From an uncultured Lachnospiraceae bacterium (GTDB lineage Bacteria > Bacillota > Clostridia > Lachnospirales > Lachnospiraceae): DNA of 64,000 bases. The stretch is from positions 26,891 through 90,890 of the forward strand of contig CAMZDG010000005.1 of NCBI GenBank assembly GCA_947305245.1. Direction: 5' to 3'. Position numbers and translations under genes: made by a program. Positions 3,077 through 54,600 of the stretch are shown one piece after another. The first letter of the stretch is position 1, and every line of letters starts with the position of its first letter. The notes beneath the pieces are model-generated. The model saw nothing but the letters and a program-made list of their open reading frames with translations, was not told the DNA's origin and made no database searches.

Positions 3077-4963
3077 ATGAAGAAAAAATATCTGATGCAT
3101 AAATTTTCAAAGGTGTTTGCAGTGATGCTCCTTTCCGCAGCGCTGGCGCTCGGCGGATGCACTTCCGCGAACACCTCAGAAGGGACGACGGACGCGGCGG
3201 CCAGCCAGACGGAGAGTTCGGTGCAGGCCGGGCAGACAACCTACAGCGCGGCGGCCAGTGCGGGAGTGGTGACCACCATTGATATCACGGACATGTTTTC
3301 CAAACGGGACATGGAGACCGAGTATCAAGAGGAGGAATGCGTTCTGATCACCTTAAACGGGACGGAGGCGCAGTGCAGTAGCTCCGGCGTGACTATAGAG
3401 GACGGTACCGTCATCATTAAGGAGGCAGGGAGCTATCTGCTTCGGGGCAGCTTTAACGGATCCATCCGCGTTGAGGCGCCGGAGGATGCGAAGGTGCAAG
3501 TGATCCTGGACGGCGTGACGCTCCGGCAATCCGGAACTGCCGCAATCTATGGGAAGACGGCTGATAAGATCTTTCTTACCATGGCTGAGGGCAGCAGCAA
3601 TCAGATCATCAATGAGGGTGACTTCCAGGCCATCGACGAGAATAACATCGATGGCGCCATCTACTCGAAATGTGACCTGACGCTGAACGGCAACGGAACG
3701 CTGACCGTCAGCTCCGAAAAGGGTCATGGCATTGTCTCCAAGGATGACCTAAAGATCACCAGTGGCACTTATGTCATCACGGCAGGGGATCACGGCATAT
3801 CCGGGAAGGACAGCATCCGGATCGCTGACGGCGACCTGACCATCACTTCGACGGAGGATGGCCTGCATTCCGGCAATGACGAAGACGCGGACAAGGGTTA
3901 TGTTTATGTCGCAGGCGGCAAGATCACCATCTCTGCGGGAGATGACGCCATTCACGGCGAGACAAAGGTCGTGATCGCGGACGGCAAGATCAATATTACG
4001 AAGAGCAAGGAAGGCATCGAGGGAGCCATCGTGGAGATTGCAGGCGGCGATATCACGGTTGTTGCAAGCGACGACGGACTGAACTGTACGGACGGCAGCA
4101 GTACGGAAGGCTTTGGCGGCCGCGGCTTTGGGCAGCAGGGCGCTTCGGGAGGAAATACGGCGAAATCTTCGGTGTATCTTCTGATCTCCGGGGGCAAGAT
4201 CCTGGTGGATTCTCAGGGAGACGGCATTGATTCGAACGGCGACGTCTATGTGACGGGCGGTGAGATTTACGTCTCCGGGCCCGAGAATAACGGAAATGGC
4301 GCGTTGGATTATGATTCCAAGGGAGAGATCACCGGAGGAAGCTTCATTGCGATTGGATCCACGGGAATGGCCATGAATTTCAGCAGTGCGACCCAGGGCA
4401 GCGCCCTGATCACCTTATCCTCAACCCATAAGGCGGGAGAGGAGATCTTGCTGAAGGACAGTGACGGAAATCTGATCCTGAGCTTTACTTCGACACGGAG
4501 CTTTGCCAGCGTAGTTGTCAGCAGCCCTCTGATGAAGCAGGGCGGTACCTATACTCTGACGGTCGGGAGCGAAACGCAGACCATTACCTTAGATCAGCTG
4601 ATCTATGGCCAGTCGAACGGCTTCGGCGGCATGGGCGGCTTCGGCGGCGGCCGCGGTGGTTTCGGCGGACAGAGACCTGACGGATCGGATGGCCAGATGC
4701 CTAATTTTGGAGATGGGCAGATGCCAAGTTGGGGAGACGGGCAGATGCCGGAAGGATTCGACGGTCAAATGCCGAGTTGGGGAGACGGCCAGATGCCGAA
4801 AGGATTCGACGGTCAGATGCCTAATTTTGGAGATGGGCAGATGCCGAGTTGGGGCGACGGTCAGATGCCCGGAGGTTCCGGCGGACAAAAGCCTGGCGGC
4901 TTTAATGGACAGAAGCCCGGGAACGCTGACGGGAAGTCGGATAAGCAAAGCAGCGGAACCTGA
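3077..4963 (+). CDS. Cthe_2159-like (DUF4353) beta-helix carbohydrate-binding lipoprotein with low-complexity tail
   Basis: Lipobox ALGGC; repeated D-G-I/L-H/D-S beta-helix turns; G/Q/M/P-rich C-terminus. Confidence 0.8.
   Translation: MKKKYLMHKFSKVFAVMLLSAALALGGCTSANTSEGTTDAAASQTESSVQAGQTTYSAAASAGVVTTIDITDMFSKRDMETEYQEEECVLITLNGTEAQCSSSGVTIEDGTVIIKEAGSYLLRGSFNGSIRVEAPEDAKVQVILDGVTLRQSGTAAIYGKTADKIFLTMAEGSSNQIINEGDFQAIDENNIDGAIYSKCDLTLNGNGTLTVSSEKGHGIVSKDDLKITSGTYVITAGDHGISGKDSIRIADGDLTITSTEDGLHSGNDEDADKGYVYVAGGKITISAGDDAIHGETKVVIADGKINITKSKEGIEGAIVEIAGGDITVVASDDGLNCTDGSSTEGFGGRGFGQQGASGGNTAKSSVYLLISGGKILVDSQGDGIDSNGDVYVTGGEIYVSGPENNGNGALDYDSKGEITGGSFIAIGSTGMAMNFSSATQGSALITLSSTHKAGEEILLKDSDGNLILSFTSTRSFASVVVSSPLMKQGGTYTLTVGSETQTITLDQLIYGQSNGFGGMGGFGGGRGGFGGQRPDGSDGQMPNFGDGQMPSWGDGQMPEGFDGQMPSWGDGQMPKGFDGQMPNFGDGQMPSWGDGQMPGGSGGQKPGGFNGQKPGNADGKSDKQSSGT
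4691..4930 (+). repeat. 24-bp in-frame tandem repeat, about 10 units, encoding GQ(M/K)Pxxxx
   Basis: GG(C/G/T/A)CA(G/A) unit starts at 4691, 4715, 4739, 4763, 4787, 4811, 4835, 4859, 4883, 4907. Confidence 0.9.
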
Positions 4964-4998
4964 TCAGATAAAACTAAGTAGGATCCTTTCGATCCCAG

Positions 4999-5034
4999 GG
5001 GCTTTCCGGGCAGACGGAAAGCCCTTTACTTTTG
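4999..5034 (+). terminator. Rho-independent terminator
   Basis: GGGCTTTCC...GGAAAGCCC followed by TTTACTTTT. Confidence 0.75.
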
Positions 5035-5078
5035 CCCATTCTTTCGATATACTTGTGTATAGATTTGGAGGGTTGCCT

Positions 5079-6443
5079 ATGTCAGAGAAAGATCCAAACG
5101 TCCAAAGCGATTTTATGATCGAGAGAATCAAGGAACGCCCCGTAAATAAGGGCAAGCTGATCCGTCGCATGCTGCTCACCGCAGCCATGGCCGTGATCTT
5201 TGGTTTGGTTGCCTGTTTTACTTTCCTGGCGCTCGAGCCAGTGCTGAACGGCTGGATGAATCCGGAAAAAGATCTTCCGAAGATTTACTTCCCTGAGGAG
5301 ACGGAGGAGATGTTGCCGGAGGAAATGCTGCTGGAGAATATTCCGGATACCTCCCTGACGGGAAATTCCGAGATCGAAGCAGATCCTTCCGAACAGGGCA
5401 CCGAGACGGGGGAAGTGGAGCTGGAAGAAGAGCAGATCCAAAAGATCCTTTCTGAGATCAACCTGAGCGTTGTCAACTACAGACAGATGTATTCCGCGTT
5501 GTCCGAGTATACCAAGACACTTCAAAAATCCATGGTCACGCTGACGGGCGTTACTTCCAGAACGGACTGGCTGAATGACGTCAACGAAAGCACCAATCGT
5601 GCCTCCGGGATCATCATTTATAATAATACCGTAGACCTCTTTATTCTCACGGATTATTCCGCGCTCGAGAATGCGCAGCGGCTGAACGTGACCTTCTGTA
5701 ACGGTGCGGAGACGACGGCCGTGCTAAAGCGCAAGGATCCGGGCACTGGACTTGCCGTGGTGACCGTTCCGATCGAGGCGCTTCCGGAGAACTTTTTGCA
5801 GGAGACCATTGCCGTTGCGAAGCCTGGTTCCTCCAACTATACGAATCTTGTCGGAATGCCTGTGATCGCCCTGGGAAGTCCCATGGGCACCGTGAATTCC
5901 GCGGGATATGGCGTGATCAATTCCGTTTCGGGAGTGGTGTTCGATGAGGACGTCAATTATAAGCTCCTTCAGACGGACATTGTCGGGAGTCCTTTGGCGG
6001 ACGGCGTTCTTTTCAATCTCTATGGACAATTCATTGGTATTATCACGCATGATCATTCTGCCGCAGGCATGGAAAACCTGATCACCGCATATGGTATCAC
6101 GGACCTGAAAAAGAGGATGGAAAAGATGTCCAATGATCAGCCCTTCTCCTACGCGGGCATCTACGGGACTTCCGTTAGCCTGAGCGCACATGAAGAGCTT
6201 TACGTTCCCTATGGAGCCTACGTCAAGGACATTGCGCTGGACTCTCCTGCCATGCGCGCGGGCATCCAAAAGGGCGACGTGATCACCCAGATGGATGAAT
6301 ATGCGATCACGAATTTTTCGGATTACGTATCCTTCCTGAATATTAAAAATCCGGAGACGGAGGTTCTAGTGACCGTACTTCGCCTGGCCCAGAACGGATA
6401 TAAGGAAATGCAGGTGGAAATGACGCTGGGCGAACTGAAATAA
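5079..6443 (+). CDS. Membrane-anchored HtrA-like trypsin-fold + PDZ protein with a degenerate catalytic triad, 454 aa
   Basis: One TM; VIALGSPMG, LLQTDI, G-D-V-I PDZ motif; start reset to ATG 5079 (MSEKDP) after GGAGGG. Confidence 0.8.
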   Translation: MSEKDPNVQSDFMIERIKERPVNKGKLIRRMLLTAAMAVIFGLVACFTFLALEPVLNGWMNPEKDLPKIYFPEETEEMLPEEMLLENIPDTSLTGNSEIEADPSEQGTETGEVELEEEQIQKILSEINLSVVNYRQMYSALSEYTKTLQKSMVTLTGVTSRTDWLNDVNESTNRASGIIIYNNTVDLFILTDYSALENAQRLNVTFCNGAETTAVLKRKDPGTGLAVVTVPIEALPENFLQETIAVAKPGSSNYTNLVGMPVIALGSPMGTVNSAGYGVINSVSGVVFDEDVNYKLLQTDIVGSPLADGVLFNLYGQFIGIITHDHSAAGMENLITAYGITDLKKRMEKMSNDQPFSYAGIYGTSVSLSAHEELYVPYGAYVKDIALDSPAMRAGIQKGDVITQMDEYAITNFSDYVSFLNIKNPETEVLVTVLRLAQNGYKEMQVEMTLGELK

Positions 6444-48788: not shown

Positions 48789-49741
48789 AATACGATTGTG
48801 ACGTAATAGAAGATCTCCTTCCGTTATATCAGGACGGCGCATGTACGAACGCGACGAAGCGCACCGTGGAAGAGCACCTGGCGGAATGCCCCAAGTGTGC
48901 GGAATTGGTGAAGAAGCTGAAGGACATGTCGATCGATGACATGATCCTAAAGGAAAAAGAGGACGTGATCAGTTCTCAGTCAAAGTATTTTAAGAGAAAA
49001 AGTGCTTTGGCAGGAAGCATTGTCGGAGGCATCTTTGCACTGCCGATCCTGATCTGCCTGATCGTGAATCTGGCGACGGGACATGGGCTTACCTGGTTCT
49101 TTATCGTGCTGGCTGCAATGCTGATCCCGACCTCCCTCTTCGTCGTGCCACTGGTGGCACCGAAGAATCGGATGTTCCTGACGATGACCTCCCTGACGGG
49201 AAGTATCATTTTGCTCCTTGCGGTTTGCTGCATTTATTCCAAAGGGAATTGGTTCTTTGTGGCGGCGTCGGCAGTGCTGTTTGGCCTGACGGTTTGCTTC
49301 GGACCCTTTATCGCCTGCAGAAGGCCCGTGAACGCCTACTTAAAGAACTGCAAGGGACTCGCCGTGATGATCGCGTGCACCGTTACGTTCTTTTTGATGA
49401 TGCTTTGCATCGGGATTTACGCATATTATCCCGGAATCTTTGCAGAAATTTTTGGAGTTTTCCTTCCCTTGACTTTGGTGGCATGGGTGCTGTTCCTGAT
49501 CATCCGTTACCTTCCTGCAAACGGCTTGGTGAAGGCTGGCGTTTGCATCGCAGCCATGAGTGCGCTGTGTTACCTTGCAAATGAGGCAGGGACCTGGCTG
49601 ACGACAAAGCATTTAGAGCCTGGAGTCGTAATCGTGAGAGCAACGCCTTCTCTGGCCATGACGTTTGTCGGCATCGGGATCGGCGTGGCATTTGCGCTGA
49701 TCGGACTGCTTGTGAAAAAGAATGGAGGGAAAAAGCAATGA
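48785..49741 (+). CDS. zf-HC2 anti-sigma factor with multiple TMs
   Basis: CDVIEDLLPLY..EEHLAECPKC; hydrophobic C-terminal part. Confidence 0.9.
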   Translation: MKYDCDVIEDLLPLYQDGACTNATKRTVEEHLAECPKCAELVKKLKDMSIDDMILKEKEDVISSQSKYFKRKSALAGSIVGGIFALPILICLIVNLATGHGLTWFFIVLAAMLIPTSLFVVPLVAPKNRMFLTMTSLTGSIILLLAVCCIYSKGNWFFVAASAVLFGLTVCFGPFIACRRPVNAYLKNCKGLAVMIACTVTFFLMMLCIGIYAYYPGIFAEIFGVFLPLTLVAWVLFLIIRYLPANGLVKAGVCIAAMSALCYLANEAGTWLTTKHLEPGVVIVRATPSLAMTFVGIGIGVAFALIGLLVKKNGGKKQ

Positions 49742-50679
49742 GAAGATTCGGTAAATTCATGATCGGGGCCGTGAGCCTGGCGTTGGCGTTGTGCCTTAGC
49801 GGTTGCAATTTTGGCTGGAAGATAAGTTATACCTACGCGGATGCGGAAAAATATACTGCCGGAGACAGACAGATCACGGAAAAGATCGAGACCATCGACA
49901 TTGATTATCTGTCGGGAGACATAACGCTGAGCGGTACGGATGGGAACGCCGTGACCGTGAAGGAAACTTCCGGGAAGGAGTTAGATGACAAAAGAAAGGT
50001 TCACACCTGGGTGGATGGCACGACGCTGTACGTCAGATATTGCGCCTCGGCAAAGGGCCTGGACTTAGATCACCTCAATAAGAAGCTTGAGATCCAGATC
50101 CCTGCGGACTGCCAGCTGGAGAAGCTCAAAGTGGATGTTTCCTCCGGGGATTTCACCGGGAAAGATTTTGAGGCGAATGGCGTAAACGTATACGCATCCT
50201 CCGGCGACGTGGAAGTGTCCTGCGGTGCGAAAGACATAGAGCTTAGGACGTCTTCCGGGGACATTACCCTGACCCAGCACGGGGAAAGCGACTCCATAAA
50301 ATTGCATGCCTCTTCCGGGCACGTGAATGCCACGGTGGAGACGGCCGGTAAGGTTGACAGCTACGTAAGCTCCGGAAAGCTTTTGATCCAGGGTCATTTC
50401 ATTAAGGAGCTGGAATCCAAGGTTTCCAGCGGAGAGGGAGAATACCGTTTCGCCGTGACGCCGGAAAAGTCAAAGATCGATCATTCCTCCGGAACCGTGA
50501 CCATTTTCCTTCCTAAGGACGCCGACCTGACGGGTGAATTCAAGAGCTCGAGCGGCAAGGTTCTTTATGATCTTGCATTCTCCAAGGCGGATAACAAGTA
50601 TGTCTGCGGAAGCGGCGCGAATGAGATGAACGTGCACGTGTCCTCCGGAAACATTGAGATCAAAGAAATGAATAAATAA
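49738..50679 (+). CDS. DUF4097 beta-strand-repeat lipoprotein
   Basis: Lipobox LSGC; repeated SSG(D/K/N) motifs. Confidence 0.85.
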   Translation: MRRFGKFMIGAVSLALALCLSGCNFGWKISYTYADAEKYTAGDRQITEKIETIDIDYLSGDITLSGTDGNAVTVKETSGKELDDKRKVHTWVDGTTLYVRYCASAKGLDLDHLNKKLEIQIPADCQLEKLKVDVSSGDFTGKDFEANGVNVYASSGDVEVSCGAKDIELRTSSGDITLTQHGESDSIKLHASSGHVNATVETAGKVDSYVSSGKLLIQGHFIKELESKVSSGEGEYRFAVTPEKSKIDHSSGTVTIFLPKDADLTGEFKSSSGKVLYDLAFSKADNKYVCGSGANEMNVHVSSGNIEIKEMNK

Positions 50680-50787: not shown

Positions 50788-52014
50788 TCAGGCAAGCGTA
50801 AGGGTGGCTGATTGATCGGAAGTCAGCTCCAGGGCGGCCTTGAGATCGCCGCTCGAAAGCTCGTAGTTCCCCTTGAAGCCTTCCAAAGTAAGCATGCCGT
50901 TTTCATCCGTTTGCAGGGTAAGGTTCGTTGACCAGTCCTCGTGGATGAGCTTTTGCAGCGCGAGATAAGAGGGCTTTATGGTATTGTCGCTGTGAAGGAA
51001 GCCGGACGGCGCATGAAGCCAGCAGTCGTCCGTGAAATCCCAGGTCGTGATGGCCTGCACTAAGGGATGCTCGAAGAGGATCGAATACATCTCGCAGATC
51101 TCTTTCGCCTGACGCGCCTCGCCCTCCGGCGTGGAAGGCCAGCTGTCCACCTGGAAATCATTGAGGTCCACAATATGCGCAGGCATGATCTCGCCGGAAA
51201 TCAGCGTGTTTTCCGTAAAGTGGATGGGCAGGCCAAAACGAGAAAAGCGCGAAAGGACGTTGCGAAGCTTTTCCTCACCCCAGTAGCCCTGATGCTGATG
51301 GGACTGGATGCCGATGGCACTGATCGGAACACCGGCCTCTAGGAGGCCCTCCAGCAGTATTTCATAAGATACACTCGTGTTAAAGTCATTGATCAGAAGC
51401 GTTGCATTCGGGTTCATGGCCTTCGCCTCGTCGAACACCGCCTTGACAAGCTGAATGCGTCCCTTTTCCTGACAGATGCGCGTGATGGCGTTATCATACT
51501 TATCGAATATTGGCATGATCACGACTTCGTTGATCACGTCCCACATGTCGATCACGCCGCGAAATGCCGTGACGTCGCGGTCAATGCGCTTTAACTGACG
51601 CTTTAGGATTTCTTCGTTCGAATATTGCATCAGCCAGTCGGCGCAGGCCGTATGCCAGCAAAGAGGATGACCCTTGGCGGTCACGCCGTGGTCCTTTAGC
51701 CATTTGGCAGCTGCCATGGTCGGAGCTTCCATCGTCTGCCCCTCCACGGGCTCATACCGTCCCCAATAAAACGGAAGCGTCCCGTAATTAAAGAGCTTCA
51801 GCCATTTTTCCATGCGGTCTTCCAAGAAGGCAATCTTTTCTTCATCGCCCGCTTTCCGTGCCTGCATCAGCGCAACACTGTCGAACGCGCCACATCCGAA
51901 CAAAAACTGATGAGAAACCTGCCGTACCGTCACCTGCTGATTTGCCAGCGCCGAGCCGTCCTTCCTCACAAGCTTTATTTTAGCCGTCGCCTTCCTATGC
52001 TCCAAATTACCCAT
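50788..52014 (-). CDS. GH10 endo-1,4-beta-xylanase, no signal peptide
   Basis: KGHPLCWH, WDVINE (acid/base), IGIQSH, IHFTEN (nucleophile). Confidence 0.9.
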   Translation of the reverse strand: MGNLEHRKATAKIKLVRKDGSALANQQVTVRQVSHQFLFGCGAFDSVALMQARKAGDEEKIAFLEDRMEKWLKLFNYGTLPFYWGRYEPVEGQTMEAPTMAAAKWLKDHGVTAKGHPLCWHTACADWLMQYSNEEILKRQLKRIDRDVTAFRGVIDMWDVINEVVIMPIFDKYDNAITRICQEKGRIQLVKAVFDEAKAMNPNATLLINDFNTSVSYEILLEGLLEAGVPISAIGIQSHQHQGYWGEEKLRNVLSRFSRFGLPIHFTENTLISGEIMPAHIVDLNDFQVDSWPSTPEGEARQAKEICEMYSILFEHPLVQAITTWDFTDDCWLHAPSGFLHSDNTIKPSYLALQKLIHEDWSTNLTLQTDENGMLTLEGFKGNYELSSGDLKAALELTSDQSATLTLA

Positions 52015-52056
52015 ACCAAGCCTCCTTCATCCATATTCTTCCATCTAGTTCTTTAT

Positions 52057-52088
52057 CCAAATCCAAAACAAACCAAATCCAAAACAAA
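52057..52088. repeat. 16-bp tandem duplication CCAAATCCAAAACAAA
   Basis: Copies at 52057 and 52073; related sequence at about 52123-52143. Confidence 0.7.
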
Positions 52089-52179
52089 CTAAAGCTTATT
52101 TTAAAACAAGCTAAATCCTATTCCAAAAACAAACTAAATCCAATAGCTAGTGCGATTACTGATACATAATCCAATCCAA

Positions 52180-52241
52180 TACCTACCACAATTCCTAAAA
52201 CAATTCCTACCACAATTCCTAAAACAATTCCTAATACAATT
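52180..52241. repeat. 12-bp tandem repeat (CAATTCCT-AC/AA-CA/AA), about 5 units
   Basis: CAATTCCT recurs at 52189, 52201, 52213, 52225; degenerate copy at 52237. Confidence 0.85.
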
Positions 52242-52319
52242 CTATCTCTGCCTGCATATTCCATACAATGCATTTATTGTCCAAACGTATGTATATTTAG
52301 CCATCGGAGCATGAAATTT

Positions 52320-52612
52320 ACGCTTGTAAGGGGGAAAAAGCAGAAAAGCATAAACCGTATTTCGGAATCTTATGCTTGTAAGGAAAAGCAAGTAAAAAAG
52401 CATAAGCTAATTCTTGGAATCTTATGCTTGTAGAGAAAAGCAGGTGAAAAAGCATAGGCTAATTCTTGGAAGCTTATGCTTGTAGGGAAAAGCAGGTGAA
52501 AAAGCATAGGCTAATTCTCGGAAGCTTATGCTTGTAAGGAGAAGCAAGTAAAAAAGCATAGACTAATTCTCGGAAAATTATGCTTGTAAATAAAAACAAA
52601 TTAAAAAGCATA
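52320..52612. repeat. Array B: 6 units, 52-bp period, alternating TATGCTT / AAGCATA arms
   Basis: Unit starts 52320, 52372, 52424, 52476, 52528, 52580. Confidence 0.92.
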
Positions 52613-52629
52613 GCACAAAATCGAAGATG

Positions 52630-53228
52630 GACTGCTTGGAAGACAAAAATGAAATTTGTACAGTCTTAGAAGAGGATAGCGACTACAAGAAATGAAAAAG
52701 TGGAATTTGTGCAGTCAGAAAACGGAAGAATAGACTGTAGGGAATGAGGAAGTGGAATTTGTGCAGTCAGAAAACGGAAGAACTGACTGTAGGGAATGAG
52801 GAAGTGGAATTTGTGCAGTCAGAAAACGGAAGAATAGACTGCATGAAATTAGAAAGCAGAATTCTTGCAGTCAGAAAACGGAAGAATAGACTGTAGGGAA
52901 TGAGGAAATGGAATTTGTGCAGTCAGAAAACGGAAGAATAGACTGTAGGGAATGAGGAAATGGAATTTGTGCAGTCAGAAAACGGAAGAATAGACTGTAG
53001 GGAATGAGGAAGTGGAATTTGTGCAGTCAAAAAGCAATGAAAGTGACTGTAGGGAAGACGAAAATTGAAACCGTACAGTCCGAAACAAGAGAGATAGACT
53101 GCATAAAAGCTGAAAATAAAATCCATGCAGTCCGAGAAGAGGAAGATGGACTGCATGGAAAACAAAAATGAAATCCGTACAGTCTAAGAAGAGGATGGAC
53201 TGCATGGAAGGCGAAAAATAAAATCCGT
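52630..53228. repeat. Array C: 12 units, 52-bp period, alternating GACTGYA / TRCAGTC arms
   Basis: GACT starts 52630, 52681, 52733, 52785, 52837, 52889, 52941, 52993, 53045, 53097, 53149, 53198. Confidence 0.92.
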
Positions 53229-53376
53229 GAGTCATGAATGCGGAAAAGCTTGGTGGCTCAGGATTTGTTGGGGGGTGTTCTGCTAAAAGGAGCAAATCGG
53301 AGGCAGAATAGAAAAAATGTTCCTTCTACAGGCGAGGGCAGAAAAATGGCACACCCCACACCCGTGGACAGGGAGA

Positions 53377-53407
53377 GAAAAACTCCCGCCCTTGGGGACG
53401 GGAGTTG
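53377..53407 (-). terminator. Terminator of the TraX-like gene
   Basis: AACTCCCG...CGGGAGTT hairpin with a T-run on the minus strand. Confidence 0.75.
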
Positions 53408-53417
53408 CGGGAGTTGT

Positions 53418-54119
53418 CTACAACCGGAATAAAAATGCCAGGATCAATAAATGCAGGGGGTAGAACACATAAAAGAACCATTTGTGGAACGGGTCGAGGC
53501 TCCCTGGCTTTCCGTTATACGCCCGCAGTAGCGGGATCACCAGGAACACGCCGATCTGGAATACCTGCGCAAAGGGGTGATAGCTAGAGATCACCGTCAG
53601 CTGTATGAGCAGGACTTCCGAAATGGCGATGATGGTAAAGGCCGTCCATTTCTTCTTTGGATCGTCGCGGTAGATGACGAAGAATAGCGGCCACAGAATG
53701 TCGAAAATGGGCCAGTCTCCGAAGATTGAAATCGCACAGAGCAGGACAATGATCACGACTTTCCATGCGACCTTAAGGTTTGTTTTGTCCCAGACCCAAA
53801 GCGCGATCAGCCCGAGGAACAGGGTGTAGATCACGCCAAAGGTTGGCGCCGGCCAGGTTCTTGCTTCAAAGAGGGAATAGGGCACCCAGGAGATGAGCGT
53901 GAAAACAAAAAGGCGAATGCCATATTTCTTAATGCTGCGGGTGTGCAGATAGCCCTCGGCGAGCATGAACGCCATAATGGGGCCGGTCAGCCTTCCGATC
54001 ACATGCATCACAAAGCCCAGGGGCGTCGTCGTGGAGGTAATGCACCAGGCCACGTGGTCTATGAGCATGGCGAGGATGGCAATGTATTTTAACTGGTTTC
54101 TGTTCAGCGAGAGTTTCAC
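53418..54119 (-). CDS. TraX-family (acyltransferase-like) membrane protein, 233 aa
   Basis: NQLKYIAILAMLIDH, IGRLT.P.MAF..AEG..HT, KWFFYVFYPLHL; GTG 54119 after AAGGAGG. Confidence 0.85.
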   Translation of the reverse strand: MKLSLNRNQLKYIAILAMLIDHVAWCITSTTTPLGFVMHVIGRLTGPIMAFMLAEGYLHTRSIKKYGIRLFVFTLISWVPYSLFEARTWPAPTFGVIYTLFLGLIALWVWDKTNLKVAWKVVIIVLLCAISIFGDWPIFDILWPLFFVIYRDDPKKKWTAFTIIAISEVLLIQLTVISSYHPFAQVFQIGVFLVIPLLRAYNGKPGSLDPFHKWFFYVFYPLHLLILAFLFRL

Positions 54120-54366
54120 AAAGAGTTCCTCCTTTTCCATAATGATGTCTATCAAACTAGTTTCCAAGAATCATTATAAAATCGAGAATAGCAATTTGCA
54201 ACAAGAAATAAGTGGTTTCCTCTATGGTCAGAATTCTTATTTACGACAAGAAATAAGTGGTTCGCGATATTAAGAATTCCTGAAGGGATGGTAAAAAAAT
54301 AAAGAGAGAGAAAAAAGAGATGCATTGCGGCAAGAGCAAGTTTCGTGATAAAATAACCTAAGACAA

Positions 54367-54600
54367 GCAGGCCATGAGAAAAAACGAGCATGACAAGAAA
54401 GAGCATGGCCAGGAAAAGTGAGCGCGGCCAGGAAAAGTGAGCGCGGCCAGGAAAAGTGAGCGCGGCCAGGAAAAGCGAGCATGGCCAGGAAAAGTGAGCG
54501 CGGCCAGGAAAAACGAGCATGACAAGAAAGAGCATGGCCAGGAAAAGTGAGCGCAGCCAGGAGAACGAGCGCGGCCAGAGGAAGCAGGCAAGGCCAGAAA
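54367..54600. repeat. VNTR, about 12 units, mostly 19 bp (AGCGCGGCCAGGAAAAGTG)
   Basis: Units at 54402, 54421, 54440, 54459, 54478, 54497, 54531, 54550, 54568; 15-bp variants at 54387 and 54516. Confidence 0.92.

What the first reader, a model, noticed from the sequence alone, without database searches (positions are those of the whole stretch)
52320..53228. Twin non-coding arrays with unrelated sequences but the same 52-bp period and two-arm palindromic design
Array B (6 units) alternates TATGCTT and AAGCATA arms. Array C (12 units) alternates GACTGYA and TRCAGTC arms, separated by fixed-length purine-rich segments of about 22 and 16 nt that vary in sequence. The two arrays abut, and both keep 52 bp (about 5 helical turns), although the outer units have diverged in sequence. 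Edge units of C resemble each other while the central units are homogenised. Conserved spacing with drifting sequence suggests selection on geometry. Possible roles: a phased protein-binding platform (centromere- or nucleoid-like), alternating hairpins processed into small RNAs, or a target/product of an HUH or recombinase-driven amplification. No cas, Nop-domain (Tas) or transposase gene is adjacent, so any protein partner acts in trans.
Basis: partly seen in the sequence, partly recalled or inferred. Interest (0 to 1): 0.7.

Follow-up and report, generated by a model that had tools for sequence, protein, structure and literature searches.

The report
Strain-variable 52-bp hairpin-unit tandem repeat
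The two "twin arrays" are real but form one continuous, in-phase run of about 18 hairpin-forming 52-bp units in a non-coding gap of a rumen Lachnospiraceae chromosome. It behaves like a fast-changing minisatellite that keeps its stem pairing; there is no sign that it is a CRISPR- or TIGR-type guide array, and no function has been shown.

Summary
Confirmed: window 52318-53250 holds 6 B units (arms TATGCTT/AAGCATA) and about 12 C units (GACTGYA/TRCAGTC), all on a 52-bp period. The B-to-C junction is exactly in phase, so this is one array.

In other strains of the same rumen Lachnospiraceae species the locus holds 11-18 units. It also holds two further unit families, D (ACTGCTT/AAGCAGT) and E (ACGGCTT/AAGCCGT, an inverted block), again with a 52-bp period and the same arm register.

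Stem pairing is kept through compensatory double substitutions at 7 of 8 positions. The period needs no selection: homologous units align without gaps. A-tract phasing is absent.

Anchor units diverge between strains like other intergenic DNA. No dispersed copies, Rfam match, cas, Tas/Nop, transposase or par gene were found, and TIGR detection rules give zero units. No RNA data exist.

Best reading (about 0.5): a lineage-specific hairpin-unit VNTR that evolves by whole-unit gain and loss, block duplication and inversion from a shared library of unit variants. Main rival (about 0.25): a regulated stem-loop ncRNA. Interest is moderate.

The parts
52318..52629 (+). Sub-array B: 6 units of 52 bp. 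Layout: arm1 TATGCTT, 20-nt purine-rich loop, arm2 AAGCATA, 18-nt spacer. First and last units are diverged; the middle four are similar.
   Evidence: TRF, the repeat finder D2, unit table. 3 units instead of 6 in L039, L040, L170, L172 and in runs X2/X4, which skip 156 bp.
52630..53250 (+). Sub-array C: about 12 units, in phase with B. Layout: arm1 GACTGYA, 20-22-nt loop, arm2 TRCAGTC, 16-nt spacer. Diverged 'anchor' units at both edges, homogenised centre at 52734-53045, and a degenerate last unit (CGTGAGTC).
   Evidence: TRF, the repeat finder D1/D3, unit table. Anchor units are orthologous in all B+C strains while the central block varies.
52243..52317 (+). Conserved leader next to the array. 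It contains TACAAT (52264-52269) and the palindrome ACAATGCATTTATTGT. A 28-nt block is identical in the D-haplotype strain.
   Evidence: Comparison of the window with L002/L003. The promoter reading is inference: the sigma-70 scan did not call it. Weak sub-threshold SAM/SAH match.
52177..52242 (.). 12-bp direct repeats with core CAATTCC (5.5 copies), immediately upstream of the leader. Present with different copy number and different filler bases in other strains.
   Evidence: TRF; L002 has GCAATTCCAAAT x3; copy-number differences in L171/L172.
52055..52147 (.). 16/22-bp CA-rich repeats (CCAAATCCAAAACAAA) in front of the GH10 gene; another VNTR of the same intergenic region.
   Evidence: TRF; 2.3 copies here against 7.5 in L039/L040; indels in X2/X4.
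53381..53406 (-). Intrinsic terminator of the TraX-family gene (11-bp stem followed by a T run). It lies between the gene and the array, so little TraX read-through should reach the array.
   Evidence: Terminator scan.
53418..54140 (-). Context: TraX-family membrane protein gene, whose 3' end faces the array.
   Evidence: Pfam PF05857, E 6.6e-35. The exact protein is found on contigs carrying either the B+C or the D haplotype.
50788..52014 (-). Context: GH10 glycoside hydrolase gene, whose 5' end faces the array. Absent from the D haplotype.
   Evidence: Pfam PF00331, E 1.5e-31. L002/L003 go straight from the DUF4097 gene to the repeat region.

Best explanation
The region is a single, lineage-specific minisatellite (VNTR) built from 52-bp units. 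Each unit carries a 7-8-bp inverted repeat, giving the layout arm, ~20 nt, arm, ~16-18 nt.

Shown:
- The species carries a 'library' of unit variants (B, C, D, E) in the same register.
- Strains differ by gain and loss of whole units, by duplication of multi-unit blocks, by inversion of a block, and by which variant has been amplified.
- Edge units stay put while the centre is homogenised.
- The period is 52 bp in all families; B, D and reverse-complemented E align without gaps.
- Stem complementarity has been kept through compensatory double substitutions.

Inferred:
- The period is shared because the unit families descend from one ancestral unit by substitution, without indels (the gap-free alignment is shown only for B, D and E).
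- The changes arise by unequal exchange or replication slippage between units.
- The pairing is kept either because units that can fold back when single-stranded are amplified preferentially, or because quasi-palindrome template switching copies a change from one arm to the other.
- If any part is transcribed, the units would act like REP/BIME-type extragenic hairpins rather than as sequence-specific guides or binding sites.

No dedicated protein partner is required.
For: Copy number and order:
- 11, 13, 13, 14, 16 and 18 units in six complete assemblies of the same haplotype, with the same roughly 9 anchor units in the same order.
- A 156-bp (3-unit) deletion in runs X2/X4.
- A higher-order duplication with a hybrid unit in L043.
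- The D array is made of 2 copies of a 4-unit block.

Library of variants:
- A contig encoding the identical TraX protein carries family D instead of C.
- A lineage with 88% TraX identity carries two C-like units plus family E.
- rc(E) matches D at 34/52 (null maximum 29) and B matches D at 31/52 (null maximum 28), both ungapped.

Pairing is kept. Recent point changes avoid the 5-bp stem core (4 of 59 where 11 are expected, p = 0.018).

Little other constraint:
- Anchor units differ 2-5% between strains, like neighbouring non-repeat intergenic DNA (2-5%) and more than most neighbouring coding sequence (about 0.7-2% for TraX, FMN_dh and GH10).
- The array is absent downstream of TraX in the nearest other species.
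- There are no dispersed copies in the window or in 31 related loci.

The surroundings are repeat-prone: three other intergenic VNTRs lie within 2.5 kb.
Against: - A weak 7-8-bp stem with a 20-nt loop (ssDNA -2.4 to -6.8 kcal/mol) is a poor driver of slippage and is unlikely to extrude from duplex DNA.
- The units fold better as RNA (-6 to -12 kcal/mol).
- The strong purine excess of one strand (68% A+G) and the fact that loops and spacers cannot pair with each other look like design for a single-stranded molecule.
- A leader block and CAATTCC repeats are conserved upstream of two very different arrays.
- Template switching and amplification bias are proposed, not demonstrated.
- Copy numbers come from short-read assemblies.
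Confidence: 0.5

Rival explanations
1. The array is a gene for a regulated, roughly 1-kb non-coding RNA made of 11-18 stem-loops with purine-rich, GGA-containing loops and linkers. It would be transcribed on the + strand from the conserved leader and act as a multivalent sponge or scaffold for an RNA-binding protein, in the manner of CsrB/RsmZ.
For: - Compensatory stem changes.
- Unit hairpins of -6 to -12 kcal/mol as RNA, and the whole + strand folds with z = -12.
- The purine-rich loops and linkers cannot pair with each other.
- GGA occurs 41 times where 27 are expected. In B units the best RNA fold puts AAGGAAAA in an 8-nt loop.
- A 28-nt leader block containing TACAAT, plus upstream CAATTCC direct repeats, is conserved in front of both the B+C and the D arrays.
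Against: - No transcript data.
- No + strand terminator after the array and no called promoter.
- No strand bias of G.U against A.C states (7 against 6 events).
- Block E is inverted relative to the flanks yet well homogenised.
- Anchor units evolve like neutral intergenic DNA.
- Absent in the nearest species.
- The GGA excess is small and not independent between repeated units.
- No Rfam match.
Confidence: 0.25
2. The array is a phased protein-binding platform on double-stranded DNA (centromere-, iteron- or nucleoid-like). Inverted half-sites every 26 bp would recruit a protein encoded elsewhere.
For: A regular 52-bp period (about 5 helical turns), with 6-bp arm cores alternating in orientation every 26 bp. 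It has 12-18 units, as in plasmid centromeres such as sopC (from memory).
Against: - Arm sequences differ between B, C, D and E within one species and even within one array, so a sequence-specific protein would need several specificities.
- Half-sites 26 bp apart are too far for an ordinary dimer (established knowledge).
- No common A-tract phasing or curvature.
- No par, rep or recombinase gene in 64 kb.
- Chromosomal context with a monotonic GC skew.
- No plasmid or phage similarity.
Confidence: 0.07
3. The array is an orphan guide-RNA array of TIGR stem-loop type or CRISPR-like type. Its loop and spacer segments would be guides used by an effector encoded in trans.
For: TIGR stem-loop arrays are described as tandem units with 'variable but consistently palindromic' stems (PMC12045711), which matches the covarying arms.
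Against: - TIGRFinder-type rules (box C CNA, 9-nt spacer, box D YG, two such intervals at most 15 nt apart, flanked by a stem of at least 5 bp; bioRxiv 10.64898/2026.09.09.750476) give 0 units on either strand.
- Only 20-22 nt lie between the arms, too short for two 14-nt intervals.
- The intervening segments are homologous between units and identical in the centre, so they are not unique spacers.
- No Nop/Tas or cas gene in 64 kb.
Confidence: 0.03
4. The array is a REP/BIME-like cluster made or amplified by an HUH (RAYT-type) enzyme that recognises the hairpin in single-stranded DNA and is encoded elsewhere in the genome.
For: Alternating inverted arms in an extragenic position at gene 3' ends, with hairpin covariation between families, as seen for REP classes and their RAYTs (from memory).
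Against: - No dispersed copies in 64 kb plus 31 related loci.
- No Y1/HUH transposase in the window.
- The arms are 7-8 bp separated by 20 nt, not 20-40-nt imperfect palindromes.
- The genome outside the window could not be searched.
Confidence: 0.05

Closest known systems
Bacterial minisatellites / VNTR loci such as MIRU-VNTR of Mycobacterium tuberculosis (from memory: 40-100-bp intergenic tandem units, including units of 51-53 bp)
   Same: Intergenic tandem units of about 50 bp. Strains differ by whole units. Edge units are degenerate and the centre is homogenised.
   Different: The units here carry a conserved, covarying inverted repeat. There are several deeply diverged unit families in one register, and a single locus as far as could be searched.
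BIME-2 clusters of REP elements in Enterobacteria (from memory: REPs alternating in orientation with short linkers, up to about 12 tandem copies, extragenic, at gene 3' ends)
   Same: Alternating inverted elements with two fixed linker lengths, tandemly repeated, lying between genes.
   Different: REPs are 20-40-nt imperfect palindromes dispersed in hundreds of copies and linked to RAYT transposases. Here the arms are 7-8 bp, no dispersed copies were found and there is no RAYT in the window.
TIGR stem-loop arrays of TIGR-Tas systems (PMC12045711; bioRxiv 10.64898/2026.09.09.750476)
   Same: Tandem stem-loop units whose stems vary in sequence but stay palindromic.
   Different: No box C/D-flanked 9-nt spacer pairs (0 units). 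The loop is too short. The intervening sequence is not unique per unit. There is no Tas gene nearby.
CRISPR arrays
   Same: Regular alternation of conserved and less conserved segments. A repeat finder tuned for CRISPR could call this an array.
   Different: The 'spacers' are homologous to one another and identical in the central units. The conserved parts are inverted rather than direct copies. There are no cas genes.
CsrB/RsmZ-type sponge RNAs (from memory)
   Same: Many repeated hairpins, with GGA motifs in loops and linkers, and fast sequence turnover with retained design.
   Different: No evidence of transcription, promoter or terminator. The GGA excess is only 1.5-fold. No such sponge is known in Firmicutes, where FliW antagonises CsrA (from memory).
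Eukaryotic satellite DNA, 'library' model and higher-order repeats (from memory)
   Same: A shared set of variant monomers is differentially amplified in related lineages. Multi-unit higher-order repeats occur, the centre is homogenised and the edges are diverged.
   Different: This is a bacterial single-copy locus of about 1 kb, not a megabase array.

Membership tests
CRISPR array | Direct repeats separated by unique spacers of similar length | tested here: not met
   The segments between arms are homologous between units and identical in the central units. The conserved arms are inverted copies.
CRISPR array | cas genes nearby | tested here: not met
   Pfam scans of all ORFs of at least 150 aa in the 64 kb found no Cas family.
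TIGR-Tas (stem-loop architecture) | [quoted passage not shown] | tested here: not met
   A re-implementation of the published rules found 0 candidate units on both strands. The loop is only 20-22 nt.
TIGR-Tas (stem-loop architecture) | Variable but consistently palindromic stems | tested here: met
   90% of cells paired, and 7 of 8 pairs with changes on both sides.
TIGR-Tas (stem-loop architecture) | Adjacent Nop-domain Tas gene | tested here: not met
   No Nop hit, even at E up to 0.1, for the ORFs that lack other domains. The flanking genes are GH10, TraX, DUF4097 and FMN_dh.
REP/BIME | Units are 20-40-nt imperfect palindromes alternating in orientation | tested here: not met
   Arms of 7-8 bp alternate in orientation every 26 bp, but they are separated by 16-22 nt of non-palindromic sequence.
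REP/BIME | Many dispersed copies in the genome; RAYT gene present | tested here: inconclusive
   The covariance model finds no copy outside the array in the window or in 31 related loci. The rest of the genome could not be searched.
VNTR / minisatellite | Tandem non-coding units of 10-100 bp | tested here: met
   Stop codons occur in more than one phase of the + strand unit, 52 is not a multiple of 3, and only short ORFs cross the array.
VNTR / minisatellite | Copy number differs between strains by whole units | tested here: met
   11 to 18 units across strains; a 156-bp deletion. Caveat: these are short-read assemblies.
CsrB/RsmZ-like sponge RNA | Discrete transcript with its own promoter and terminator | tested here: inconclusive
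   Conserved TACAAT in the leader, but no promoter or + strand terminator was called and no RNA runs are available.
CsrB/RsmZ-like sponge RNA | GGA motifs presented in hairpin loops, well above chance | tested here: inconclusive
   41 observed against 27 expected. GGA is not in the loop of every family (rc(E) loop is AAGAAGA).
Plasmid centromere (sopC/parC type) | Invariant binding motif in each repeat and adjacent partition genes | tested here: not met
   The arm sequences differ between families. No ParA/ParB/ParR in the window. No plasmid similarity.

The most novel reading that the evidence does not exclude
The array is the gene of a new kind of bacterial long non-coding RNA: a strain-variable chain of 11-18 stem-loops with purine-rich (GGA-bearing) loops, made from the conserved leader under the control of a regulator that binds the upstream CAATTCC repeats. 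It would titrate or scaffold an RNA-binding protein. Valency would be tuned by unit gain and loss, and stems would be kept by compensatory evolution. It would be the first CsrB-like sponge in Firmicutes, or an entirely new RNA-protein system.
Probability: 0.15. Interest if true: 0.75.

Novelty: new variant of a known kind. Interest (0 to 1): 0.4.

Why it matters
If it is only a VNTR, it is a clean bacterial example of satellite-like 'library' evolution. It shows higher-order repeats, block inversion and compensatory maintenance of a hairpin at a single locus. It would also be a useful strain marker for an uncultured rumen Lachnospiraceae, and a warning that such arrays mimic CRISPR or TIGR arrays in scans.

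If the hairpin pairing is kept by selection on a transcript, it would point to an undescribed class of repetitive structured RNA in gut Firmicutes. The comparison set assembled here (5 unit families, about 15 contigs) makes that question directly testable with one stranded RNA-seq experiment.

Tried and rejected
- **Curved-DNA / helical-phasing idea.** The AA/TT power at 10.4 bp is not enriched in B, C, Ce or E (only D, 93 of 2000 shuffles), and a wedge-model end-to-end ratio is unremarkable. The wedge parameters were recalled from memory. Rejected as a common feature.
- **Strand of a putative RNA from wobble pairs.** G.U on + against A.C states gives 7 against 6 events, so there is no signal.
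- **Transcript evidence.** No RNA run holds the array or neighbouring genes. Runs X14, X24 and X25 look like low-coverage metagenomes.
- **Metagenome-wide pattern scan.** Absence elsewhere is therefore not shown.
- **Viral scans** with three arm patterns returned only chance hits.
- **blastn against plasmids and phages:** no match.
- **Rfam:** nothing at gathering score. A sub-threshold SAM/SAH match in the leader (22 bits against a gathering score of 40) loses a stem pair and the GGAG in strain L002, so it is treated as chance. The LhrC hit on the - strand has E of about 1.
- **Coding potential:** rejected. 52 is not a multiple of 3, and the + strand unit has stops in more than one phase.
- **Orthologous loci in other species.** 31 TraX loci from GTDB genomes have no array downstream of TraX.
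- **ECF-sigma-type or sigma-70 promoter motifs** in or near the units gave nothing convincing (and reading of the sequence).

Full report
**1. Observation**

The sequence at 52318-53250 is a tandem array with a 52-bp period.
- Tandem Repeats Finder reports 52362-52613 (4.8 copies, 89% matches) and 52691-53056 (7.0 copies, 89%), with a degenerate continuation to 53217.
- The repeat finder gives start-to-start spacings of 52 throughout.
- In a sliding autocorrelation scan of the whole 64 kb, 52 is the best lag only here.

Laid out in register, there are 6 B units and about 12 C units.
- B unit: arm TATGCTT, 20 nt, arm AAGCATA, 18 nt.
- C unit: arm GACTGYA, 20-22 nt, arm TRCAGTC, 16 nt.

The + strand is 68% purine.

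Three refinements:
- The step from the last B unit to the first C unit is exactly 52 bp, so B and C form one in-phase array.
- The 6-bp arm cores alternate in orientation every 26 bp. Each arm can therefore pair with either neighbour, and the two observed family junctions keep different registers.
- One step is 51 bp and one is 49 bp.

**2. Context and organism**

The array lies in a 1.4-kb non-coding gap. On one side is the 5' end of a GH10 glycoside hydrolase gene (50788-52014, - strand). On the other is the 3' end of a TraX-family gene (53418-54140, - strand), which has its own intrinsic terminator at 53406-53381.

Further out lie an ECF sigma / anti-sigma / DUF4097 operon and an FMN-dehydrogenase / 2-hydroxyacyl-CoA dehydratase cluster.

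The rest of the window encodes ordinary chromosomal functions. Pfam scans of all ORFs of at least 150 aa show no cas, Nop/Tas, transposase, integrase, HUH or partition gene. Cumulative GC skew is monotonic.

The sequence occurs in bovine and other gut metagenomes. The nearest genomes are rumen Lachnospiraceae MAGs. One NCBI MAG contig (GCA_017615935.1, locus L001) carries the same arrays.

**3. Other strains**

Contigs were fetched through exact or near-identical TraX proteins. Together with laid metagenome contigs, they show three things.

(a) Copy-number variation within the B+C haplotype.
- Complete assemblies have 11 units (L170), 13 (L039, L040), 14 (L172), 16 (L171) and 18 (window).
- The same roughly 9 diverged 'anchor' units appear in the same order in all of them. 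Only the homogeneous central blocks change.
- Runs X2 and X4 lack exactly 156 bp, which is 3 B units.
- L043 has a block duplication with a hybrid unit at the joint.

(b) A different unit family on an identical flank.
- L002/L003 encode an identical TraX protein but lack the GH10 gene.
- After one or two B-like units they carry a different family, D (arms ACTGCTT/AAGCAGT).
- D again has a 52-bp period (steps 51-53) and is organised as 2 copies of a 4-unit higher-order repeat.

(c) An inverted block in a more distant lineage.
- A lineage with 88% TraX identity (L044-L046) carries two C-like 52-bp units next to TraX.
- It then has family E (ACGGCTT...AAGCCGT), also 52 bp and pyrimidine-rich on the window's + strand.
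- Reverse-complemented E matches D at 34/52 without gaps (maximum of 500 shuffles: 29), so E is an inverted block of the same family.
- B matches D at 31/52 (shuffle maximum 28). C is not significantly similar to B or D by sequence. It does share the ACTGC/GCAGT arm core and the register, and its first unit has a D-type arm.

In the nearest other species (TraX identity of 74% or less) the gene is followed by a short terminator region and another gene, with no array. The element is therefore young and lineage-specific.

**4. What is conserved**

In an alignment of 61 distinct units, the 8-bp stem is paired in 90.4% of cells. Shuffled partners give 69.8% (0 of 500 shuffles reach the observed value), and sliding the partners by 1-3 columns gives 27-44%. 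Seven of 8 pairs show changes on both sides.

At family level the double changes are:

| Stem pair | States |
|---|---|
| 1-34 | T-A / A-T |
| 2-33 | A-T / C-G |
| 3-32 | T-A / G-C |
| 6-29 | T-A / A-T |
| 0-35 | T-A / G-C |

RNAalifold finds the same stem independently. Recent point differences between near-identical units avoid the 5-bp stem core (4 of 59 where about 11 are expected, p = 0.018).

By contrast, the rest of the unit shows little constraint. Orthologous anchor units differ by 2-5% between strains. That equals the neighbouring non-repeat intergenic DNA (2-5%) and exceeds most neighbouring coding sequence (0.7-2%).

**5. What the period means**

B, D and rc(E) align without a single gap at about 35-40% divergence. 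The same length therefore follows from common descent with substitutions only. With about 20 substitutions per unit, only about one indel would be expected.

Single-unit steps of 49, 51 and 53 bp do occur. There is no shared 10.4-bp A-tract harmonic or predicted curvature. I therefore do not read the 52-bp period as evidence of selection on helical geometry.

**6. Tests against known systems**

- **CRISPR:** the segments between the arms are homologous to each other and there are no cas genes.
- **TIGR-Tas:** the stem-loop architecture described in PMC12045711 shares the 'variable but palindromic stems'. However, the published detection rules find 0 units on either strand, the loop is too short for two box-C/spacer/box-D intervals, and no Nop-domain gene is present.
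- **Rfam:** no family at gathering score. There is one sub-threshold SAM/SAH match in the leader, which is degraded in strain L002.
- **Plasmids and phages:** no similarity. Arm patterns find only chance hits in viral contigs.
- **Dispersed copies:** a covariance model of the unit finds no copy outside the array in the window or in 31 related loci.
- **Metagenome pattern scan:** spoiled by a flaw in my pattern. Absence of the family elsewhere is not established.

**7. Mechanism**

The best-supported reading is a hairpin-unit minisatellite.

Shown:
- whole-unit gain and loss;
- block duplication;
- block inversion;
- stable edges with a homogenised centre;
- differential amplification of a shared library of unit variants;
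- retained stem complementarity.

Inferred:
- Unequal exchange or replication slippage drives the changes.
- Complementarity is kept by one of two routes: preferential amplification of foldable units, or quasi-palindrome template switching, a known mutational route that copies one arm onto the other (from memory).

The main rival is a transcribed stem-loop RNA. In its favour:
- the units fold better as RNA (-6 to -12 kcal/mol) than as ssDNA (-2.4 to -6.8 kcal/mol);
- the purine-only loops and linkers cannot pair with each other;
- GGA is 1.5-fold enriched;
- a 28-nt leader block with TACAAT, preceded by CAATTCC direct repeats at 12-bp spacing, is conserved in front of both the B+C and the D arrays.

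Against it:
- no terminator and no called promoter;
- no strand bias of wobble states;
- the inverted yet well-homogenised E block;
- a neutral-like substitution rate in the anchor units;
- no RNA data at all.

A DNA-binding platform is unlikely, because the arms change sequence within one species and even within one array.

**8. Verdict**

It is one in-phase array belonging to a strain-variable family with at least five unit types, and it shows strong compensatory covariation.

It is most probably a new variant of a known kind, a bacterial VNTR with palindromic units akin in design to BIME-type clusters, rather than a new RNA-guided or partition system. Interest is moderate. It would rise sharply if a discrete transcript or a binding protein were found.

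Noticed in passing
window 54407-54578: A third kind of intergenic tandem array: 19-bp unit GGCCAGGAAAAGTGAGCGC x 9.3, purine-rich on the + strand. It lies in the divergent gap between the TraX gene and the FMN-dehydrogenase gene. Run X24 lacks 18 bp there and has many substitutions, so it is also variable.
   Followed up: partly
window 52055-52242: Two short-period VNTRs sit in front of the GH10 gene. The 16/22-bp CCAAATCCAAAACAAA repeat has 2.3 copies here and 7.5 in L039/L040. The 12-bp CAATTCC repeat is the second. The only sigma-70-like site called for GH10 (52126-52098, - strand) lies inside the first, so copy number could alter GH10 expression.
   Followed up: partly
window 50788-52014 versus L002/L003: The GH10 gene is a presence/absence polymorphism. 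Strains with the D array go directly from the DUF4097 terminator to the repeat region, and the sequence just past the TraX stop codon, including the terminator, is also replaced. The whole gap behaves as a variable islet between conserved genes.
   Followed up: partly
L008 524-840: A related rumen Lachnospiraceae MAG (RGIG7929) has an unrelated 62-bp x 5.1 tandem array whose unit also holds an inverted repeat (GGGGACGGCGA ... TCGCCGTTCCC, 21-nt loop). It lies just upstream of a gene start. Hairpin-unit tandem arrays may be a recurrent feature of these genomes.
   Followed up: no
window 52257-52311 (+): Sub-threshold match to the SAM/SAH riboswitch aptamer (RF01727, 22.2 bits, gathering score 40) in the conserved leader. 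In strain L002 one stem pair and the GGAG are lost, so this is probably chance.
   Followed up: yes
window 52311-52433 (+): A short ORF of about 40 codons starts at ATG 52311 (MKF...) and runs into the first two B units. The ATGAAATTT start is conserved in L002, but the reading frame ends after 22 codons there and the GGAG before it is not conserved. Read by eye only.
   Followed up: no
window 4691-4869: 24/48/72-bp tandem repeats (CAGATGCCGAA...GGAGACGGG) lie inside coding sequence, where ORF 3077-4963 (Cthe_2159 carbohydrate-binding domain protein) overlaps ORF 4605-6443 (trypsin-PDZ protease). This is a repetitive linker region, or possibly a frameshift or fusion.
   Followed up: no
window 49738-50679 versus L171/L039/L040: The DUF4097 gene differs by about 5% from other B+C strains, against 0.7-2% for the TraX, FMN_dh and GH10 genes. 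This suggests a recombination boundary or a different history for the left flank.
   Followed up: no
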